Assembly (NCBI GenBank): GCA_016213445.1
Contig: JACRAJ010000001.1
Location: forward strand, 14,203-78,202
From: Candidatus Azambacteria bacterium
Lineage (GTDB): Bacteria; Patescibacteriota; Minisyncoccia; UBA10092
DNA: 64,000 bases
Reading direction: 5' to 3'
In this document: piece by piece, positions 31,893 through 37,232 of the stretch
How the letters are laid out: every line of letters begins with the position of its first letter
Position numbering within the stretch: position 1 is the stretch's first letter
Program-made: the position numbers and the translations under genes
Notes under the pieces: generated by a model
What the model saw: the letters and a program-made list of their open reading frames with translations, nothing else
Databases searched by the model: none
Told to the model about the DNA's origin: nothing

Positions 31893-34800
31893 TCATGGCG
31901 TTGTCGTCGCCGTTGGCGGCGTTGAGGTCGCTATCGGAATTGCTTCCGGCGTCGTTGTCGCCGTTAGCTCTATGGGCGGTAAAGTTTCCGGCGTAGTGGT
32001 CGATGCCGGTAAAGTTTCCGGCGTAGTGGTTGGCATCGGCGGCAGTTCAACGCTCGGCGGAGTTGCAGTTGCCGTGGGTAGAACAACAATATCCGACGCC
32101 GTTCCCGTGTTCTGCGTCGCGCCGCAAACTCCGTCGGAGGTCTTTATAAGACCTCTTTCTATATATATACATTTTGGAGCGGCGGTTTCCCTGTCATATA
32201 CCGTAACCCCGCTGGCCGCGCCGCCGCCGACGGTCAAAGCCTGCGTGTTCACGTTTTGCGCGGTAATATTCCCGCTTTCGTCAATTTTCCACAAGCCGCT
32301 CGCTCCGGCAATGGATTTTACATTTAATATGGAAAAACTGTTCACATTTAAGTCGCTATTTAATGTTGTCAAATCAAAAGTTCCGCTTTTGGCGGTTAGG
32401 CTCGAAGTGGCGGTTAAAGCGTTGATTTGGTTTTGAAGCGCGATTGTGGTGGAAGCCAATTCTTTAATTCCAGCAATCGCATAAGGAATCATATTGGAAG
32501 TATTCAAATAAAGCAGGCCGTCAGTGGAAGTGCTAACGCTATTGGGAAACACTTGCCCGTATTCCTGCGCGATGAAGTTGTAATAATCAGTGTCTTTGAC
32601 GCTGGGATGAGCCGCCAGAAATTCGGGGGTATAGTGAAATTTTACCGGCCGAACCCGGCTGATGATGTCTAAAGCGTCGTCGATAGTTTGGATATTGGTT
32701 TTAATTCTTCTGTCCGAACCCGTGAGCCAGGTGGTGGTGGTCAGTTTTCTGGCGTCATCGGTGGAAAGGTCGAGCTGATACCCAGGATTCGTCGTCCCGA
32801 TGCCGACTTTGCCACTCGTATCAATGACCATCCACCGGGTATTATTCGTAATAAATCCGAAATTGTGATTGGAGTATGTACCAGCATAAGCCCCAGCATT
32901 GTCATAACCTCCCAAAATCGTTTCGGCAGTATAGACGACCGACAACTTGCCATTCGGACTCGTCGTCCCGATGCCGACTTTGCCGTCAGCCCTTATATAC
33001 ATTTTCGTATCGCCAGAGCTATTCTGGAAACTAGCTATTGCATGGTCAGAAGTACTTCCAGCTGCAACTAGTATTCCATATCCGTTAGCAGGCGCATTGA
33101 AGTAAGCTGCGCGTGCACCGTTTGTACCTTGCACCACTTCAAATTTACCGTAACCGCCCGGAGCCGTCGTCCCAATGCCGACGTTGCCGCTTGTGTCTAT
33201 ACGTAATCGTTCCGAGCCTCCTGTCCACATAGTAAGCGGAGTAAACCCTGCTGTGGCATTATAGGACGTATCAAGAATACCAATTGTACCGTTATGCGCC
33301 AAACGAAGCCAAGCGTCACTTGCGCTGGCTTCAACTATAATGCCATAAAAGTCAGCCCCGGGCTGTTTGACAGCAAAGTTGGTCGCCGCATATCCTGCAA
33401 ATCCTACACTTAACTTAGAAAGCGGCGCCGTCGTCCCAATGCCGACGTTGCCGCTATTAAAATACGAGTTACCAGTACCCGCTGTAAGAAAAACTGTTTG
33501 ACTGTCGGCACTATTAGTTAACCTTAAAACTCCATTATTACTACCATCATAGCTGATGAGTCCTCTTTCATTTCCGCCTACAGACATACGAATAGCCCCG
33601 TCATTTACATCCAACTTCGCCCCAGGCGCCGTCGTCCCGATGCCGATGTTGCCGTTTTGGTTGATTCTCATTTTTTCCAACAATCCCGTTGCGCCGTTTG
33701 TCCAAAAAGACAGGCCGGAACCGAAAGTGCTTGTTGTCGTCGCCTGTTCGACGACGCCGGCGATTCTTGCTAACTGTTGGCTTGTCCCATTGGATGATTG
33801 TCCGTAGAAAGACAGGCCGGCGCCCAAGCCATTGCCGGCGGTTCCCGTCGTGTAGTGCCTTAATGCGGCTTCGTCGACAATCGTGTTGTTGAAAGCGTCG
33901 TTTGTGCCGATGTCTATCGTGTTTTGCGGAGCGACTGAAGAGCCATACATCGAACCGACGCCGGTGTAGCCGCCGGGCCTTATCAAAATGTTTCCGCTTC
34001 CGGCGGTATTGAGTTCAAGGGCGTTTTGAAGAAGAGAGGTGACGTAAGAGGAATTGTAGAAATTCAAACTGGCTTCGCCGCTGGAATTGGTGCCCAAAGA
34101 TAATGTTGTATAACCCTGTGAATTGGGATTGATAATCGAAGTTTTCGTTTGGCCGGCGATTGATTTGTAAATGTCCAGAGGATCGCTCGGCGTGGTGGTG
34201 CCAATGCCGACGTTGCCGCTTGAATCAAACGTTAATCTGTCGGTGGCGTTGGTGACCAAACTCATTTTGTCGCTTCCGGCGCGATAAATTCCTGTCGCCG
34301 TACTATTAATAAAAGCGAGCGACGGCGCGGAGGCAGAGCCGTTGGAAAGAAGCACGGCGCCGTTGAAAGTCGAGGTGCTGTTGGTGTTGGACCATAAATT
34401 TCCGCTAACCGTGAGATTGGTGGTGGAAGCGTTTATCATCGCGGTGTTGCTTCCGACCGGATTCACCGAGAAAATATTCGCGCTGTTATTGTCGATTATT
34501 TGAAAAGCGTTCGCCGTCTGATTGGCGATGGTTTGAACGGTTAACGCGGGGTTCGTGGTTGAAGCCGAGCCGTTGTTAATGTATAGCGTCTGGTTGAATT
34601 CGAATCTTTTGGAAGAAGTGGCGGAATTCCAGGTGAGTATGGCATTGGGGACGACTGTGCCGCGCCAAAAGATTAGCGATGAATTTTCGTTGTCGCTGGT
34701 GGCGTTGTCGGAGTTGATGGTGAAAGTCGCCGATTGGGTGCCGCCGATTGTCGTCGAGGCCGCGGAAATATTGTTCGCCGTAAGGGTGTTGATGTACGCG

Positions 34801-37232: not shown

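What the first reader, a model, noticed from the sequence alone, without database searches (positions are those of the whole stretch)
31893..37232. Giant protein combining cytoplasmic tandem HTH domains, one TM segment and an extracellular tail-fibre-like region with an S74-type chaperone domain
The N-terminus has two excisionase/MerR-like HTH_17 modules, followed by a coiled coil and a single TM segment. About 1400 extracellular residues follow, with at least 8 GxxGIGTTxP fibre repeats. Near the C-terminus is a segment (SDRRIKTNIQ...VRPVKFHY...FIAQEYGQVFP) typical of the self-cleaving intramolecular chaperone of phage tail spikes and endosialidases. The protein ends in a TTTPETLP-repeat tail encoded by a 30-bp tandem repeat (31977-32036).

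A DNA-binding-type domain tethered to a surface fibre suggests either a membrane-anchored transcription factor logic (like ToxR or CadC) or a re-used fold. For an episymbiotic CPR cell, such a fibre is a candidate host-attachment organelle. A third copy of the HTH module heads the gene next to the pilin genes (62289..62885).
Basis: partly seen in the sequence, partly recalled or inferred. Interest (0 to 1): 0.6.

Follow-up and report, generated by a model that had tools for sequence, protein, structure and literature searches.

The report
Membrane-anchored HTH surface fibre, likely self-regulating
A core gene of a Candidatus Azambacteria (CPR) genome encodes a phage-tail-fibre-like surface fibre whose cytoplasmic N-terminus carries two DNA-binding-type domains, and matching operator-like repeats at its own promoter suggest that the fibre controls its own gene from the membrane.

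Summary
Window 31893-37232(-) encodes a 1779-aa protein with:
- two HTH_17 winged-helix modules;
- a long helix and one N-in TM segment;
- a family-conserved stalk;
- a tail-fibre-like region with eight GxVGIGTTxP repeats;
- a Peptidase_S74 chaperone domain with its Ser/Lys dyad;
- an unassigned two-cysteine module and a Thr/Pro tail.

It is not prophage cargo. Six orthologs in Azambacteria/Parcubacteria lie in the same order: LeuRS, fibre, TPR membrane protein, rpoB, rpoC.

New findings:
1. All 13 distinct promoters of this clade carry an extended -10 box followed 5-8 nt later by repeated TGATYKGAT half-sites. Most have four sites with a 20-22 nt period.
2. The HTH-TM layout is Patescibacteria-wide. 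There are 2031 representative clusters, and 58 of 61 representatives of at least 400 aa have an early TM.
3. Other members carry TATCGGATA boxes upstream (9/16 versus 7/331 other genes).
4. Motif type tracks recognition-helix type (15/17 versus 0/43).
5. One ortholog's fibre tip is the target of a diversity-generating retroelement.

Best reading: a trimeric ligand-binding fibre whose cytoplasmic HTHs bind, and probably repress, its own promoter. DNA binding, S74 cleavage and the fibre's ligand are inferred, not shown.

The parts
31893..37232 (-). Whole gene: HTH-HTH, helix, TM, stalk, fibre, S74, terminal module and T/P tail (1779 aa)
   Evidence: ORF. It is identical to the NCBI entry 'tail fiber domain-containing protein [Candidatus Azambacteria bacterium]', on a 280-kb contig.
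37059..37196 (-). HTH_17 winged-helix module 1 (aa 13-58)
   Evidence: Pfam and TIGR01764. AlphaFold pLDDT is about 90. Foldseek matches TraN, Xis, BldC and RdfS.
36864..37016 (-). HTH_17 winged-helix module 2 (aa 73-123). This is the module that single-HTH orthologs retain.
   Evidence: K104, G106, R107, W109 and T111 are invariant in the family.
36669..36845 (-). Long cytoplasmic helix (aa 130-188), a probable coiled coil
   Evidence: AlphaFold predicts a single helix at pLDDT about 88-94. The oligomeric state was not tested.
36369..36437 (-). Single transmembrane segment (aa 266-288), N-in/C-out
   Evidence: KD hydropathy is 2.4 and this is the only such segment. K+R is higher before the TM than after it in 114 of 160 family proteins, and the reverse in 16.
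35553..36368 (-). Family-specific extracellular stalk (aa 289-560), with the motifs IFSD..F..D.P.F..W, SELSLQKKTILG and HPISTVVVQG.PATLTTYS
   Evidence: Conserved in all relatives. No Pfam family matches.
32718..35552 (-). Tail-fibre-like repeat region (aa 561-1505) with eight GxVGIGTTxP repeats
   Evidence: Repeat positions. PHROG 18345 and 9942 tail-fibre families match. Identity to annotated phage tail fibres is 26-33%.
32358..32717 (-). Peptidase_S74 intramolecular-chaperone domain (aa 1506 to about 1625). The predicted self-cleavage is before Ser1506 (codon 32715-32717), with Lys1511 as base.
   Evidence: Pfam 43.7 bits. The best PDB sequence match is the MYRF ICA domain 7dc3 (5.4e-5), where GSDRRIK aligns with PADLRAK. 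Cleavage was not tested.
32118..32357 (-). Conserved terminal module (aa about 1626-1705) with invariant Cys1688 and Cys1703, of unknown fold
   Evidence: Many invariant columns in nine full-length relatives. No Pfam family matches. These are the only two extracellular cysteines.
31896..32117 (-). Thr/Pro-rich tail ending in ATTTP. It includes a two-copy 30-bp repeat at 31971-32030.
   Evidence: Relatives have tails of the same type.
37291..37325 (-). Conserved promoter: a -35-like TAGCCA(AAA), then TTGATTTGGTATAAT (extended -10 at 37291-37305)
   Evidence: Aligned and near-invariant in 13 orthologous upstream regions.
37245..37284 (-). Proximal operator-like element ATGATCTGATCAGATCGATTTGATATGATCTGG, starting 6 nt after the -10 box
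   Evidence: Exact ATCAGATC/GATCTGAT words occur only here in the 64-kb window.
37557..37596 (-). Distal copy of the operator-like element (90% identical, 312 nt upstream)
   Evidence: Further TGATTTGAT-type sites lie at 37970 and 38100. In all, 4 of the window's 8 A-type sites fall in the 1.17-kb upstream gap.
62289..62885 (-). Paralogous HTH module at the head of a 198-aa protein next to pilin-like genes
   Evidence: BLASTP and phmmer. The neighbours carry PilX_N and N_methyl domains. No TM segment is evident from a hydropathy reading of the sequence.
28947..31559 (-). Syntenic downstream partner: a multi-pass membrane protein with C-terminal TPR repeats (870 aa)
   Evidence: A TPR protein lies downstream of the fibre gene in five of the six ortholog loci; the sixth is cut short. 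Only the TPR part has a family assignment. A functional link is not shown.

Best explanation
The gene encodes a type II (N-in/C-out) membrane-anchored surface fibre of a Candidatus Azambacteria cell.

**Outside the cell.** About 1490 residues form a tail-fibre-like, probably trimeric shaft. The C-terminal S74 intramolecular chaperone domain is expected to help it fold and then to cut itself off before Ser1506. The distal end binds an external ligand.

**Inside the cell.** The two winged-helix HTH_17 modules are held together by the long helix and by trimerisation of the fibre. They bind the repeated TGATYKGAT half-sites that start at about the transcription start of the protein's own gene. Sites overlapping the start and the core promoter suggest negative autoregulation, in which finished, membrane-inserted fibres shut off further synthesis.

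**Shown:**
- domain composition, fold and topology signals;
- vertical inheritance in a housekeeping neighbourhood;
- conservation and specificity of the cis-element, and its co-variation with HTH type;
- DGR targeting of an ortholog's tip.

**Inferred:**
- DNA binding by this HTH, and the direction of regulation;
- trimer state and S74 cleavage;
- the identity of the ligand;
- any transmission of an outside signal to the HTH.
For: **Domains and fold**
- The N-terminal model is confident. Its best structural matches are DNA binders: TraN, a tandem excisionase-like dsDNA binder (prob 1.00); Pukovnik Xis (rmsd 1.1-1.5); BldC bound to DNA; RdfS; and MerR N-domains.

**Topology**
- One TM segment is present. 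The positive-inside rule holds in 114 of 160 relatives, against 16 with the reverse.

**Not a prophage**
- The flanking genes are rpoB, rpoC, LeuRS, IleRS and tmRNA.
- The order LeuRS, fibre, (TPR membrane protein, rpoB, rpoC) recurs in six ortholog loci; one of them is cut after the start of an unassigned gene.

**The cis-element**
- All 13 distinct upstream regions of the clade share TTTGnTA[T/C]AAT followed after 5-8 nt by TGATYKGAT half-sites.
- Eight of the eleven elements parsed have four half-sites, three have three, and the period is 20-22 nt.
- The promoter is highly conserved although the proteins are only 31-59% identical.
- Exact half-site words occur only there in five of six loci totalling about 190 kb.
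- 4 of the 8 sites in the window lie in the 1.17-kb upstream gap.

**The wider superfamily**
- TATCGGAT occurs 23 times against 0.8 expected upstream of 41 other HTH-TM genes.
- It lies upstream of 9 of 16 HTH-TM genes against 7 of 331 other genes, p = 6e-10.
- 68 hits lie within 250 nt of HTH gene starts, against 117 hits elsewhere in 661 kb.
- These boxes are often direct repeats, or sit between -35 and -10. They therefore cannot be RNA hairpins.

**Co-variation**
- The TGATYKGAT type lies upstream of 15 of 17 genes with an NVL-type recognition helix and 0 of 43 with an SLR-type helix.

**S74 domain**
- Ser1506 and Lys1511 are at the +5 spacing of the MYRF dyad. Lys1511 aligns with the MYRF lysine, and Ser1506 with an Ala in the deposited chain.

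**Ligand binding**
- Ortholog P0030 ends in a C-type-lectin fold, followed by bAvd and a reverse transcriptase. 14 of the 15 TR/VR mismatches are at template adenines.
Against: - No experiment shows DNA binding, and no protein-DNA model could be made.
- The fibre-clade element can also fold as a 5'-terminal RNA hairpin, down to -29.6 kcal/mol in L005. The nested pairing of half-sites (89% and 82% Watson-Crick) is slightly better than the local pairing (79% and 74%).
- The co-variation statistics are not corrected for phylogeny. Most NVL-type genes are orthologs with orthologous promoters.
- 16 of 43 SLR-type genes have no TATCGGATA box within 250 nt.
- A trimeric fibre does not fit a palindromic, dimer-like site in any obvious way.
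- In the window the element is a variant (14-bp palindrome GATCTGATCAGATC plus GATTTGATATGATCTGG) shared only with L006.
- The S74 domain is followed by about 210 more residues, which differs from typical phage S74 proteins where the chaperone is C-terminal (own knowledge). What cleavage would release is therefore unclear.
- The C-terminal structure model failed.
Confidence: 0.55

Rival explanations
1. The fibre is real, but the HTH is a re-used fold. It serves as a cytoplasmic protein-protein or anchoring module, as the HTH of RodZ binds MreB. The conserved promoter-proximal palindromes are then a 5'-terminal mRNA stabiliser hairpin for a long transcript, or the site of a different regulator.
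For: - The fibre-clade elements begin at about +1 and can form stable hairpins of -8 to -30 kcal/mol.
- Outer and inner half-sites change in a mirrored way in L005, L007 and L008.
- A small PaaX_M-like gene lies directly upstream of the fibre gene in L002, L005 and L075.
- The RodZ precedent rests on my own knowledge.
Against: - The primary sequence of the half-sites is conserved, not just their pairing. 47 mismatches are non-wobble, and G-U is not clearly favoured over A-C (12 against 7).
- In other lineages the boxes are 9-bp units in direct repeat, or sit inside the -35/-10 spacer, where no hairpin can form.
- Motif type follows HTH helix type.
- No PaaX_M homolog exists in the 64-kb window, yet the element is kept. 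L001, L003 and L004 also have no PaaX_M gene called at the locus.
- All top structural matches are DNA binders.
Confidence: 0.2
2. The HTH binds DNA as a ToxR-like signal transducer or tether rather than as a simple autorepressor. Contact of the fibre tip with a partner cell or ligand changes HTH clustering and activates or derepresses a regulon. Alternatively, the HTH tethers the chromosome or incoming DNA to the envelope.
For: - The topology is the same as in bitopic regulators.
- There are several operator-like sites over 1.1 kb upstream.
- An ortholog has a variable ligand-binding tip.
- An HTH paralog lies beside pilin-like genes.
Against: - Within 19-64 kb of each locus the exact half-site words occur only at the gene's own promoter. 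No regulon is visible, although whole genomes were not scanned.
- The sites overlap the start or core promoter, which is a repressor-type position.
- No sensor or proteolytic release module was found.
- The S74 domain is on the other side of the membrane from the HTH, so its cleavage cannot free the HTH.
Confidence: 0.15
3. It is a domesticated or decaying prophage or tailocin tail-fibre gene that happens to be fused to an excisionase-type gene.
For: - PHROG tail-fibre and excisionase families match.
- Phage tail fibres are the nearest annotated relatives of the shaft.
Against: - No phage genes lie nearby, and the flanks are housekeeping genes.
- The position is the same in six genomes.
- The fused reading frame, with TM segment and stalk, is intact in 19 relatives.
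- The HTH-TM layout is seen in 58 of 61 superfamily representatives of at least 400 aa.
Confidence: 0.03

Closest known systems
ToxR, CadC and TcpP bitopic membrane-bound one-component regulators
   Same: A cytoplasmic N-terminal DNA-binding domain, one TM segment, an extracytoplasmic C-terminal part, and DNA bound while the protein stays in the membrane (own knowledge). The topology is supported here.
   Different: Those proteins use an OmpR-type winged helix and a small periplasmic sensor. This one has one or two excisionase/MerR-type HTH_17 modules and a 1490-aa tail-fibre-like ectodomain. The putative sites are at its own promoter only.
MYRF (myelin regulatory factor) and its S74-type ICA domain
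   Same: It combines a DNA-binding domain, an S74 intramolecular chaperone domain and a TM segment in one chain. The MYRF ICA domain is the best PDB sequence match of the S74 region.
   Different: The order in MYRF is DBD, ICA, TM, so self-cleavage frees the DBD (own knowledge). Here the order is DBD, TM, fibre, S74. The S74 domain is outside the cell and cannot release the HTH.
Phage tail fibres and tailspikes with a C-terminal S74 chaperone (K1F endosialidase, T5 L-shaped fibre; cyanophage and pelagiphage fibres)
   Same: The GxVGIGTTxP-type shaft repeats, the S74 domain and the Ser-Lys dyad.
   Different: It is chromosomal, vertically inherited and anchored by an N-terminal TM segment instead of a virion adaptor. 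It also carries about 210 extra residues after the S74 domain.
TraN (pIP501), BldC and Xis: small excisionase/MerR-like DNA binders
   Same: The fold is the same, and the tandem-HTH 'internal dimer' resembles TraN. BldC and Xis bind arrays of direct repeats (own knowledge), as the upstream boxes here would require.
   Different: Those are small soluble proteins. Here the module is fused to a coiled coil, a TM segment and a surface fibre.
DGR variable proteins (Bordetella phage Mtd; CPR DGR targets)
   Same: Ortholog P0030 has a C-type-lectin tip with a TR/VR pair, bAvd and a reverse transcriptase.
   Different: The window protein has an S74-type end and no reverse transcriptase or Avd nearby. 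PMC8144416 states that CPR targets typically lack any recognisable TM or conserved domain. P0030 has both.
RodZ
   Same: A bitopic protein with a cytoplasmic N-terminal HTH and a single TM segment (own knowledge).
   Different: RodZ has an XRE-type HTH that binds MreB, not DNA. No MreB link was examined here, and the motif evidence points to DNA.

Membership tests
HTH_17 / excisionase-MerR winged helix (PF12728, TIGR01764) | Profile match above the curated cut-off | tested here: met
   PF12728 scores 38.7 bits against 27, in two stretches. TIGR01764 scores 32.8 against 28.8.
HTH_17 / excisionase-MerR winged helix (PF12728, TIGR01764) | Winged-helix fold superposable on solved members | tested here: met
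   pLDDT is about 90. Foldseek matches Pukovnik Xis at rmsd 1.1-1.5, BldC at 1.7-2.3, and TraN at prob 1.00 over both modules.
HTH_17 / excisionase-MerR winged helix (PF12728, TIGR01764) | Sequence-specific DNA binding | not testable with these tools
   There is indirect support only: operator-like motifs that co-vary with helix type.
Peptidase_S74 intramolecular chaperone (PF13884) | Profile match above the curated cut-off | tested here: met
   43.7 bits against 22, at aa 1506-1566.
Peptidase_S74 intramolecular chaperone (PF13884) | Catalytic Ser and Lys five residues apart at the start of the domain | tested here: met
   S1506-DRRI-K1511 has that spacing. GSDRRIK aligns with PADLRAK of MYRF ICA chain 7dc3: the Lys aligns, and the Ser position is Ala in that chain.
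Peptidase_S74 intramolecular chaperone (PF13884) | Domain forms the extreme C-terminus and is released by self-cleavage after trimer folding | tested here: inconclusive
   About 210 residues (a conserved module plus the T/P tail) follow the domain. Cleavage is not testable here, and the structure model failed.
Phage tail fibre (PHROG 18345 / 9942) | Profile similarity of the shaft | tested here: met
   E-values are 1.6e-25 and 4.4e-24. tblastn finds annotated tail fibres at 26-33% identity.
Phage tail fibre (PHROG 18345 / 9942) | Encoded in a phage or prophage as a virion part | tested here: not met
   The flanks are housekeeping genes, and the position is conserved in six genomes.
ToxR/CadC-type membrane-bound regulators | Cytoplasmic N-terminal DNA-binding domain, single TM segment and external C-terminal domain | tested here: met
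ToxR/CadC-type membrane-bound regulators | OmpR/PhoB-type winged-helix DNA-binding domain | tested here: not met
   Pfam reports HTH_17 as the only DNA-binding-type family, and no OmpR-type family appears at E up to 1. This is an analogy of layout, not membership.
MYRF-type self-cleaving membrane transcription factor | S74/ICA domain between the DBD and the TM segment, on the same side as the DBD, so that cleavage frees the DBD | tested here: not met
   The order is HTH (aa 13-123), TM (aa 266-288), S74 (aa 1506 onward).
DGR variable protein | C-terminal C-type-lectin/FGE-sulfatase fold with a VR, a cognate TR, and a reverse transcriptase nearby | tested here: not met
   The window protein has none of these. 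Ortholog P0030 meets all of them: bAvd, RVT_1 and 14 of 15 mismatches at template adenines.
Patescibacterial HTH-TM superfamily (defined here, not a curated family) | N-terminal module Y(I/L)SL.EA....S..YL..L.R.GKL.A.K.GRNW.TT..W...Y followed by exactly one TM segment within about 450 aa | tested here: met
   58 of 61 representatives of at least 400 aa, and all 18 of at least 1000 aa, have the TM segment.

The most novel reading that the evidence does not exclude
Patescibacteria may have a large, undescribed class of self-regulating 'inside-out' surface proteins, with about 2000 sequence clusters and members up to 6890 aa. In this class a cytoplasmic excisionase-type HTH, tethered by one TM segment to a tail-fibre-like and often hypervariable ectodomain, binds boxes at its own promoter. 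Because the HTHs would be clustered only when the fibre has trimerised outside the cell, the system would sense assembly, and possibly partner contact, and feed this back to transcription. That would be a one-protein touch or assembly sensor in organisms with very few classical regulators.
Probability: 0.3. Interest if true: 0.85.

Novelty: new variant of a known kind. Interest (0 to 1): 0.7.

Why it matters
CPR/Patescibacteria are thought to depend on other cells, but how they attach to partners and regulate their genes is poorly known.

This locus gives a concrete, testable candidate for both. It is a conserved core-genome surface fibre built from phage tail-fibre parts, and its tip is under retroelement-driven diversification in one ortholog. 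Its cytoplasmic end carries a DNA-binding-type domain that is paired with a specific, co-varying DNA motif at its own promoter.

If confirmed, it would add a new layout to the membrane-bound one-component regulators. It would also define a cis-regulatory code for a phylum-wide protein superfamily: TGATYKGAT or TATCGGATA, according to the recognition helix. And it would show that at least one CPR DGR target is a membrane-anchored, HTH-bearing fibre, whereas PMC8144416 states that CPR targets typically lack recognisable TM or conserved domains.

Tried and rejected
- **30-bp repeat.** TRF did not detect it. Direct comparison shows two copies, 6 nt off the stated coordinates.
- **C-terminal structure.** The AlphaFold model of the last 319 aa failed (pLDDT 43), so no fold search was run on it.
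- **Unassigned regions.** Pfam at E up to 10 found nothing for the stalk, the terminal module, or the alternative pre-terminal domain of P0019. Nothing credible matched the membrane part of the TPR neighbour either. NCBIfam gave only sub-threshold TPR-type matches for that neighbour and nothing for the 198-aa HTH protein.
- **Terminal module.** The word-indexed homolog search found only 3 short hits among 9 candidates.
- **Non-coding RNA.** Rfam found no RNA family in the upstream gap or the gene; tRNA-Pro lies downstream of the gene.
- **Dam-type phase variation through GATC sites.** I considered and rejected this, because L005 has the element without any GATC.
- **PaaX_M-like neighbour as the operator's regulator.** Unlikely, because it is absent from the window and no PaaX_M gene is called at the locus in L001, L003 or L004.
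- **TTATCCACA as an HTH target.** It lies upstream of 6/16 HTH-TM genes against 3/331 others. I rejected it as the HTH's site because one copy sits upstream of the tRNA-Pro promoter and others lie near tRNA genes.
- **RNA hairpin versus DNA operator.** Wobble counts did not separate the two for the fibre-clade element.
- **Literature.** Five searches found no description of this architecture or motif.
- **In-gene TATCCGATA clusters.** In other HTH-TM genes they appear to encode an L-S-D-I/T peptide motif (my own reading of the sequences), and I did not count them as sites.
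Full report
**1. The observation**

The ORF 31893..37232(-) of 1779 aa is real.
- Pfam HTH_17 scores 38.7 bits against a cut-off of 27, in two stretches. 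TIGR01764 'excise' scores 32.8 against 28.8.
- Peptidase_S74 matches aa 1506-1566 at 43.7 bits against 22.
- PHROG tail-fibre families 18345 and 9942 match aa 892-1277 at 1.6e-25 and 4.4e-24.
- Hydropathy shows one segment only, at aa 266-288.
- Eight GxVGIGTTxP-type repeats start at aa 601, 718, 1008, 1196, 1263, 1351, 1419 and 1476.
- AlphaFold, on a 28-sequence alignment, models both winged-helix modules at pLDDT about 90. It also models a single long helix at aa 130-188 and a helix at aa 241-284 that covers most of the TM segment.
- The third HTH copy at 62289..62885(-) is confirmed at 43% and 39% identity. From its sequence it shows no evident TM segment. It lies beside PilX_N and N_methyl pilin-like genes.

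Two small corrections are needed. The 30-bp repeat lies at 31971-32030 with two copies, 25/30 identical. TRF did not call it.

**2. Organism and context**

The exact protein is in NCBI as 'tail fiber domain-containing protein [Candidatus Azambacteria bacterium]', on a 280-kb contig. The window is ordinary chromosome:
- rpoB at 24838-28221 and rpoC at 21093-24701;
- LeuRS at 38402-40918 and IleRS at 50112-53054;
- a tmRNA and four tRNA genes.

Six orthologs from other Azambacteria/Parcubacteria genomes sit in the same place. The order is MetRS, (TatD), LeuRS, a small variable gene, the HTH-fibre gene, variable small genes (often 23S_rRNA_IVP/Avd-like), an 820-870-aa TPR protein, an 80-aa gene, rpoB and rpoC. 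One of those loci is cut short before the TPR gene can be identified. The window also has the 80-aa ORF, at 28463-28705. The gene is therefore a vertically inherited core gene, not prophage cargo.

**3. The family**

Nineteen relatives of 1225-3021 aa all begin with one or two HTH modules, a helix, one TM segment and a conserved stalk. The one exception is an N-terminally truncated sequence. The stalk carries the motifs IFSD..F..D.P.F..W, SELSLQKKTILG and HPISTVVVQG.PATLTTYS.

The shaft is mosaic. Relatives variously contain inteins inside the fibre, EPTP-like repeats, Gly-rich domains, or an FGE-sulfatase/C-type-lectin end.

Two alternative pre-terminal domains occur: S74, or an unassigned domain. 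After either comes the same conserved module with two invariant cysteines, and then a Thr/Pro tail ending in TTTP or TSTP. Pfam assigns none of the stalk, the alternative domain or the terminal module.

**4. The S74 domain**

The best PDB sequence match of the last 299 aa is the MYRF ICA domain 7dc3 (5.4e-5). GSDRRIK aligns with PADLRAK, so Ser1506 and Lys1511 sit at the +5 spacing of the catalytic dyad. From knowledge of the family, S74 domains trimerise the preceding fibre and then cut themselves off. That would remove aa 1506-1779 here. It is inferred, not tested, and the C-terminal model failed.

**5. Topology**

The N-terminal flank of the TM segment is more basic than the C-terminal flank. 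Across 160 family proteins, K+R is higher before the TM segment in 114 and after it in 16. There is no N-terminal hydrophobic signal sequence. The HTH modules are therefore cytoplasmic, and about 1490 aa lie outside the cell.

**6. The fold of the HTH**

The top Foldseek match in the PDB is TraN of pIP501. TraN is a dsDNA-binding protein made of two excisionase-like HTHs, and it aligns over both modules (prob 1.00). RdfS excisionase, Pukovnik Xis (rmsd 1.1-1.5 Å), BldC bound to DNA, and MerR-family N-domains bound to DNA follow. Nothing points to a non-DNA-binding family.

**7. A conserved operator-like element**

The 13 distinct upstream regions of the clade (14 loci, two with identical sequence) share the following:
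- a -35-like TAGCCAAAA;
- an extended -10, TTTGnTA[T/C]AAT;
- 5-8 nt further on, at about +1, an array of TGATYKGAT half-sites in alternating orientation.

A typical array reads GTGATCTGATATCAGATCA-N2-TGATCGGAT...ATCAGATCA. Of the eleven elements parsed, eight have four half-sites and three have three, with a period of 20-22 nt. The promoter is near-invariant although the proteins are only 31-59% identical.

The element is specific. Exact ATCAGATC/GATCTGAT words occur only there in five of six loci totalling about 190 kb.

In the window the element is a variant, ATGATCTGATCAGATCGATTTGATATGATCTGG at 37252-37284. Its second half, GATTTGATATGATCTGG, is shared with its closest two-HTH relative, L006. 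It is duplicated 312 nt upstream at 37557-37596, at 90% identity. Further TGATTTGAT sites lie at 37970 and 38100. In all, 4 of the window's 8 sites fall in the 1.17-kb gene-free gap upstream. Rfam finds no RNA family there.

**8. The layout is phylum-wide and has its own DNA box**

A scan of species-representative genomes found 69 loci. In the Patescibacteria loci the HTH-bearing ORF nearly always has exactly one TM segment 70-310 aa from the N-terminus. The external part ranges from about 40 to more than 3300 aa. In Chloroflexi the same module is a stand-alone 68-100-aa protein.

An exhaustive search with aa 1-125 found 2031 representative clusters at E up to 1e-3, and 168 at E up to 1e-10, in proteins up to 6890 aa. 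Of the new representatives of at least 400 aa, 58 of 61 have a TM segment in the first 450 aa, and so do all 18 of at least 1000 aa. Their ectodomains include S74, LVIVD, Laminin_G, collagen, inteins and beta-propellers.

Upstream of 41 such genes outside the fibre clade, TATCGGAT occurs 23 times against 0.8 expected. Against a fairer control it lies upstream of 9 of 16 HTH-TM genes and 7 of 331 other genes in the same loci (p = 6e-10). 68 hits lie within 250 nt upstream of HTH genes, against 117 elsewhere in 661 kb.

The boxes are often direct repeats (L028, L035, L058, L029, L030), or lie in the -35/-10 spacer (L036, L045). RNA hairpins cannot explain that arrangement, and these are repressor-type positions.

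**9. Co-variation**

Genes whose recognition helix reads SRDY(L/M)NVL(V/I)RRGKL include the fibre clade and also L047 from Doudnabacteria. They have TGATYKGAT sites upstream in 15 of 17 cases. Genes with SQ(D/E)YLSLRARQGKL-type helices have none in 43 cases, and 27 of those 43 have TATCGGATA. The Fisher p of 2.6e-12 is inflated by shared ancestry.

The two boxes share the core ATC-N-GATA. The simplest reading is that each HTH recognises boxes at its own promoter.

**10. The tip binds something**

Ortholog P0030 has the same synteny and the same promoter and operator. It ends in an FGE-sulfatase/C-type-lectin fold and is followed by bAvd and a reverse transcriptase. The last 120 nt of its gene pair with a template repeat 572 nt downstream. 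There are 15 mismatches, 14 of them at template adenines. This is the signature of a diversity-generating retroelement.

PMC8144416 states that CPR DGR targets typically lack recognisable TM or conserved domains, so this family is an exception. The window protein itself has no VR, reverse transcriptase or Avd.

**11. Mechanism proposed**

The model is a trimeric, membrane-anchored, ligand-binding fibre. Its cytoplasmic HTHs, clustered by the helix and by trimerisation outside the cell, bind the multi-site operator at +1 and repress their own gene. The protein therefore works like a ToxR/CadC-type bitopic regulator, and it contains the same parts as MYRF. It fails the defining tests for membership of both:
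- the DNA-binding fold is different from ToxR/CadC;
- the S74 domain is on the far side of the membrane, so its cleavage cannot free the HTH.

**12. Rivals and limits**

The fibre-clade element can also fold as a 5'-terminal hairpin, down to -29.6 kcal/mol. Nested pairing of half-sites is slightly better than local pairing. G-U is not clearly favoured over A-C (12 against 7), and 47 mismatches are of other kinds, so the test is inconclusive.

A PaaX_M-like gene upstream of some orthologs could encode the true regulator. However, it is absent from the window, and no such gene is called at the locus in three orthologs.

No experiment or protein-DNA model supports binding. The ligand, the trimer state, the S74 cleavage and any signalling are all inferred. 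Five literature searches found no prior description.

**13. Verdict**

The 'membrane-anchored transcription factor' reading is strengthened by new comparative evidence, but it is not proven. This is a new variant of a known kind, of clear interest to CPR biologists.

Noticed in passing
window 31617-31625 (+); also 10761, 10817, 16337, 17005, 18146, 18882 and 20699: The DnaA-box-like word TTATCCACA occurs 8 times in the window, against about 0.5 expected for a 9-mer. At 31617 it lies 9 nt upstream of the -35 box (TTGACA) of the tRNA-Pro promoter, and 18882 lies between two tRNA genes. In other Patescibacteria it sits just upstream of the -35 box of 12 of 41 HTH-TM genes (6/16 against 3/331 other genes). 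It looks like a promoter-upstream element of these genomes.
   Followed up: partly
L075 17989-19859 (ortholog P0030): A complete diversity-generating retroelement lies directly downstream of the orthologous fibre gene. It has a bAvd gene, a TR at 18561-18680, an RVT_1 gene, and a VR that is the last 120 nt of the fibre gene. 14 of 15 mismatches are at TR adenines.
   Followed up: yes
L001-L005 and L075, next to the fibre gene: Avd-like 23S_rRNA_IVP four-helix-bundle genes flank the fibre gene in most orthologs, without a reverse transcriptase. They may be DGR remnants. The window has tRNA-Pro at this place instead.
   Followed up: no
Relatives P0015, P0021/P0022, P0029 and P0030 (protein level): Inteins (Intein_splicing, Hint) are inserted inside the extracellular fibre region of several orthologs. 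From my own knowledge, inteins are mostly reported in replication and repair proteins, so this is an unusual host. Splicing would have to precede export.
   Followed up: no
window 37233-38401: A 1.17-kb gap between LeuRS and the fibre gene has no convincing ORF and no Rfam match. It contains the 40-nt duplicated operator-like element, two further TGATTTGAT sites, and the word CATATCGCGG, which is shared by 4 of the 6 orthologous upstream regions examined (its 9-mer core ATATCGCGG by 5 of 6).
   Followed up: partly
window 62886-63017, upstream of the 198-aa HTH gene: A TTGTCCACA (DnaA-box-like) word and a TTATAAT -10 box are followed by AGCGATTTATATCGCGCTTGCGATGATAAATC, which has GCGAT/ATCGC repeats. 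This may be a third box type for this divergent HTH (helix TRDHLGLMIRRGKL).
   Followed up: no
L002 8489-9010, L005 8597-9148, L075 8555-9106: A conserved 173-183-aa PaaX_M-like protein (with a faint Cas2-like hit) is encoded directly upstream of the fibre gene in three orthologs. It is absent from the 64-kb window.
   Followed up: partly
L018 8009-8031, L025 2189-2222, L027 2638-2651, L062 10226-10248: Clusters of TATCCGATA words lie inside the coding regions of other HTH-TM genes. By my own reading of the sequences they appear to encode an L-S-D-I/T peptide motif. This may be a coincidence of a conserved peptide with the box, or there may be internal sites.
   Followed up: no
L059, L060 and L061 (bins labelled DPANN archaea): The same HTH module occurs in bins labelled Iainarchaeum, 'uncultured archaeon' and Aenigmatarchaeota. 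L060 and L061 have 4-6 TATCGGATA boxes upstream. This could be gene transfer or mis-binning.
   Followed up: no
window 11945-15688 (-) and 6895-10377 (-): There are two other large probable surface or secreted proteins. One has 1247 aa, a Lamin Tail Domain and a weak zinc phospholipase C hit. The other has 1160 aa and a PG_binding_1 domain.
   Followed up: no
window 34001-36000: The GC skew is +0.226, against negative values in most other bins of the window, and GC rises to about 0.51. This coincides with the fibre shaft. It may reflect the shaft's Thr/Ser/Ala/Gly-rich composition rather than foreign origin.
   Followed up: no
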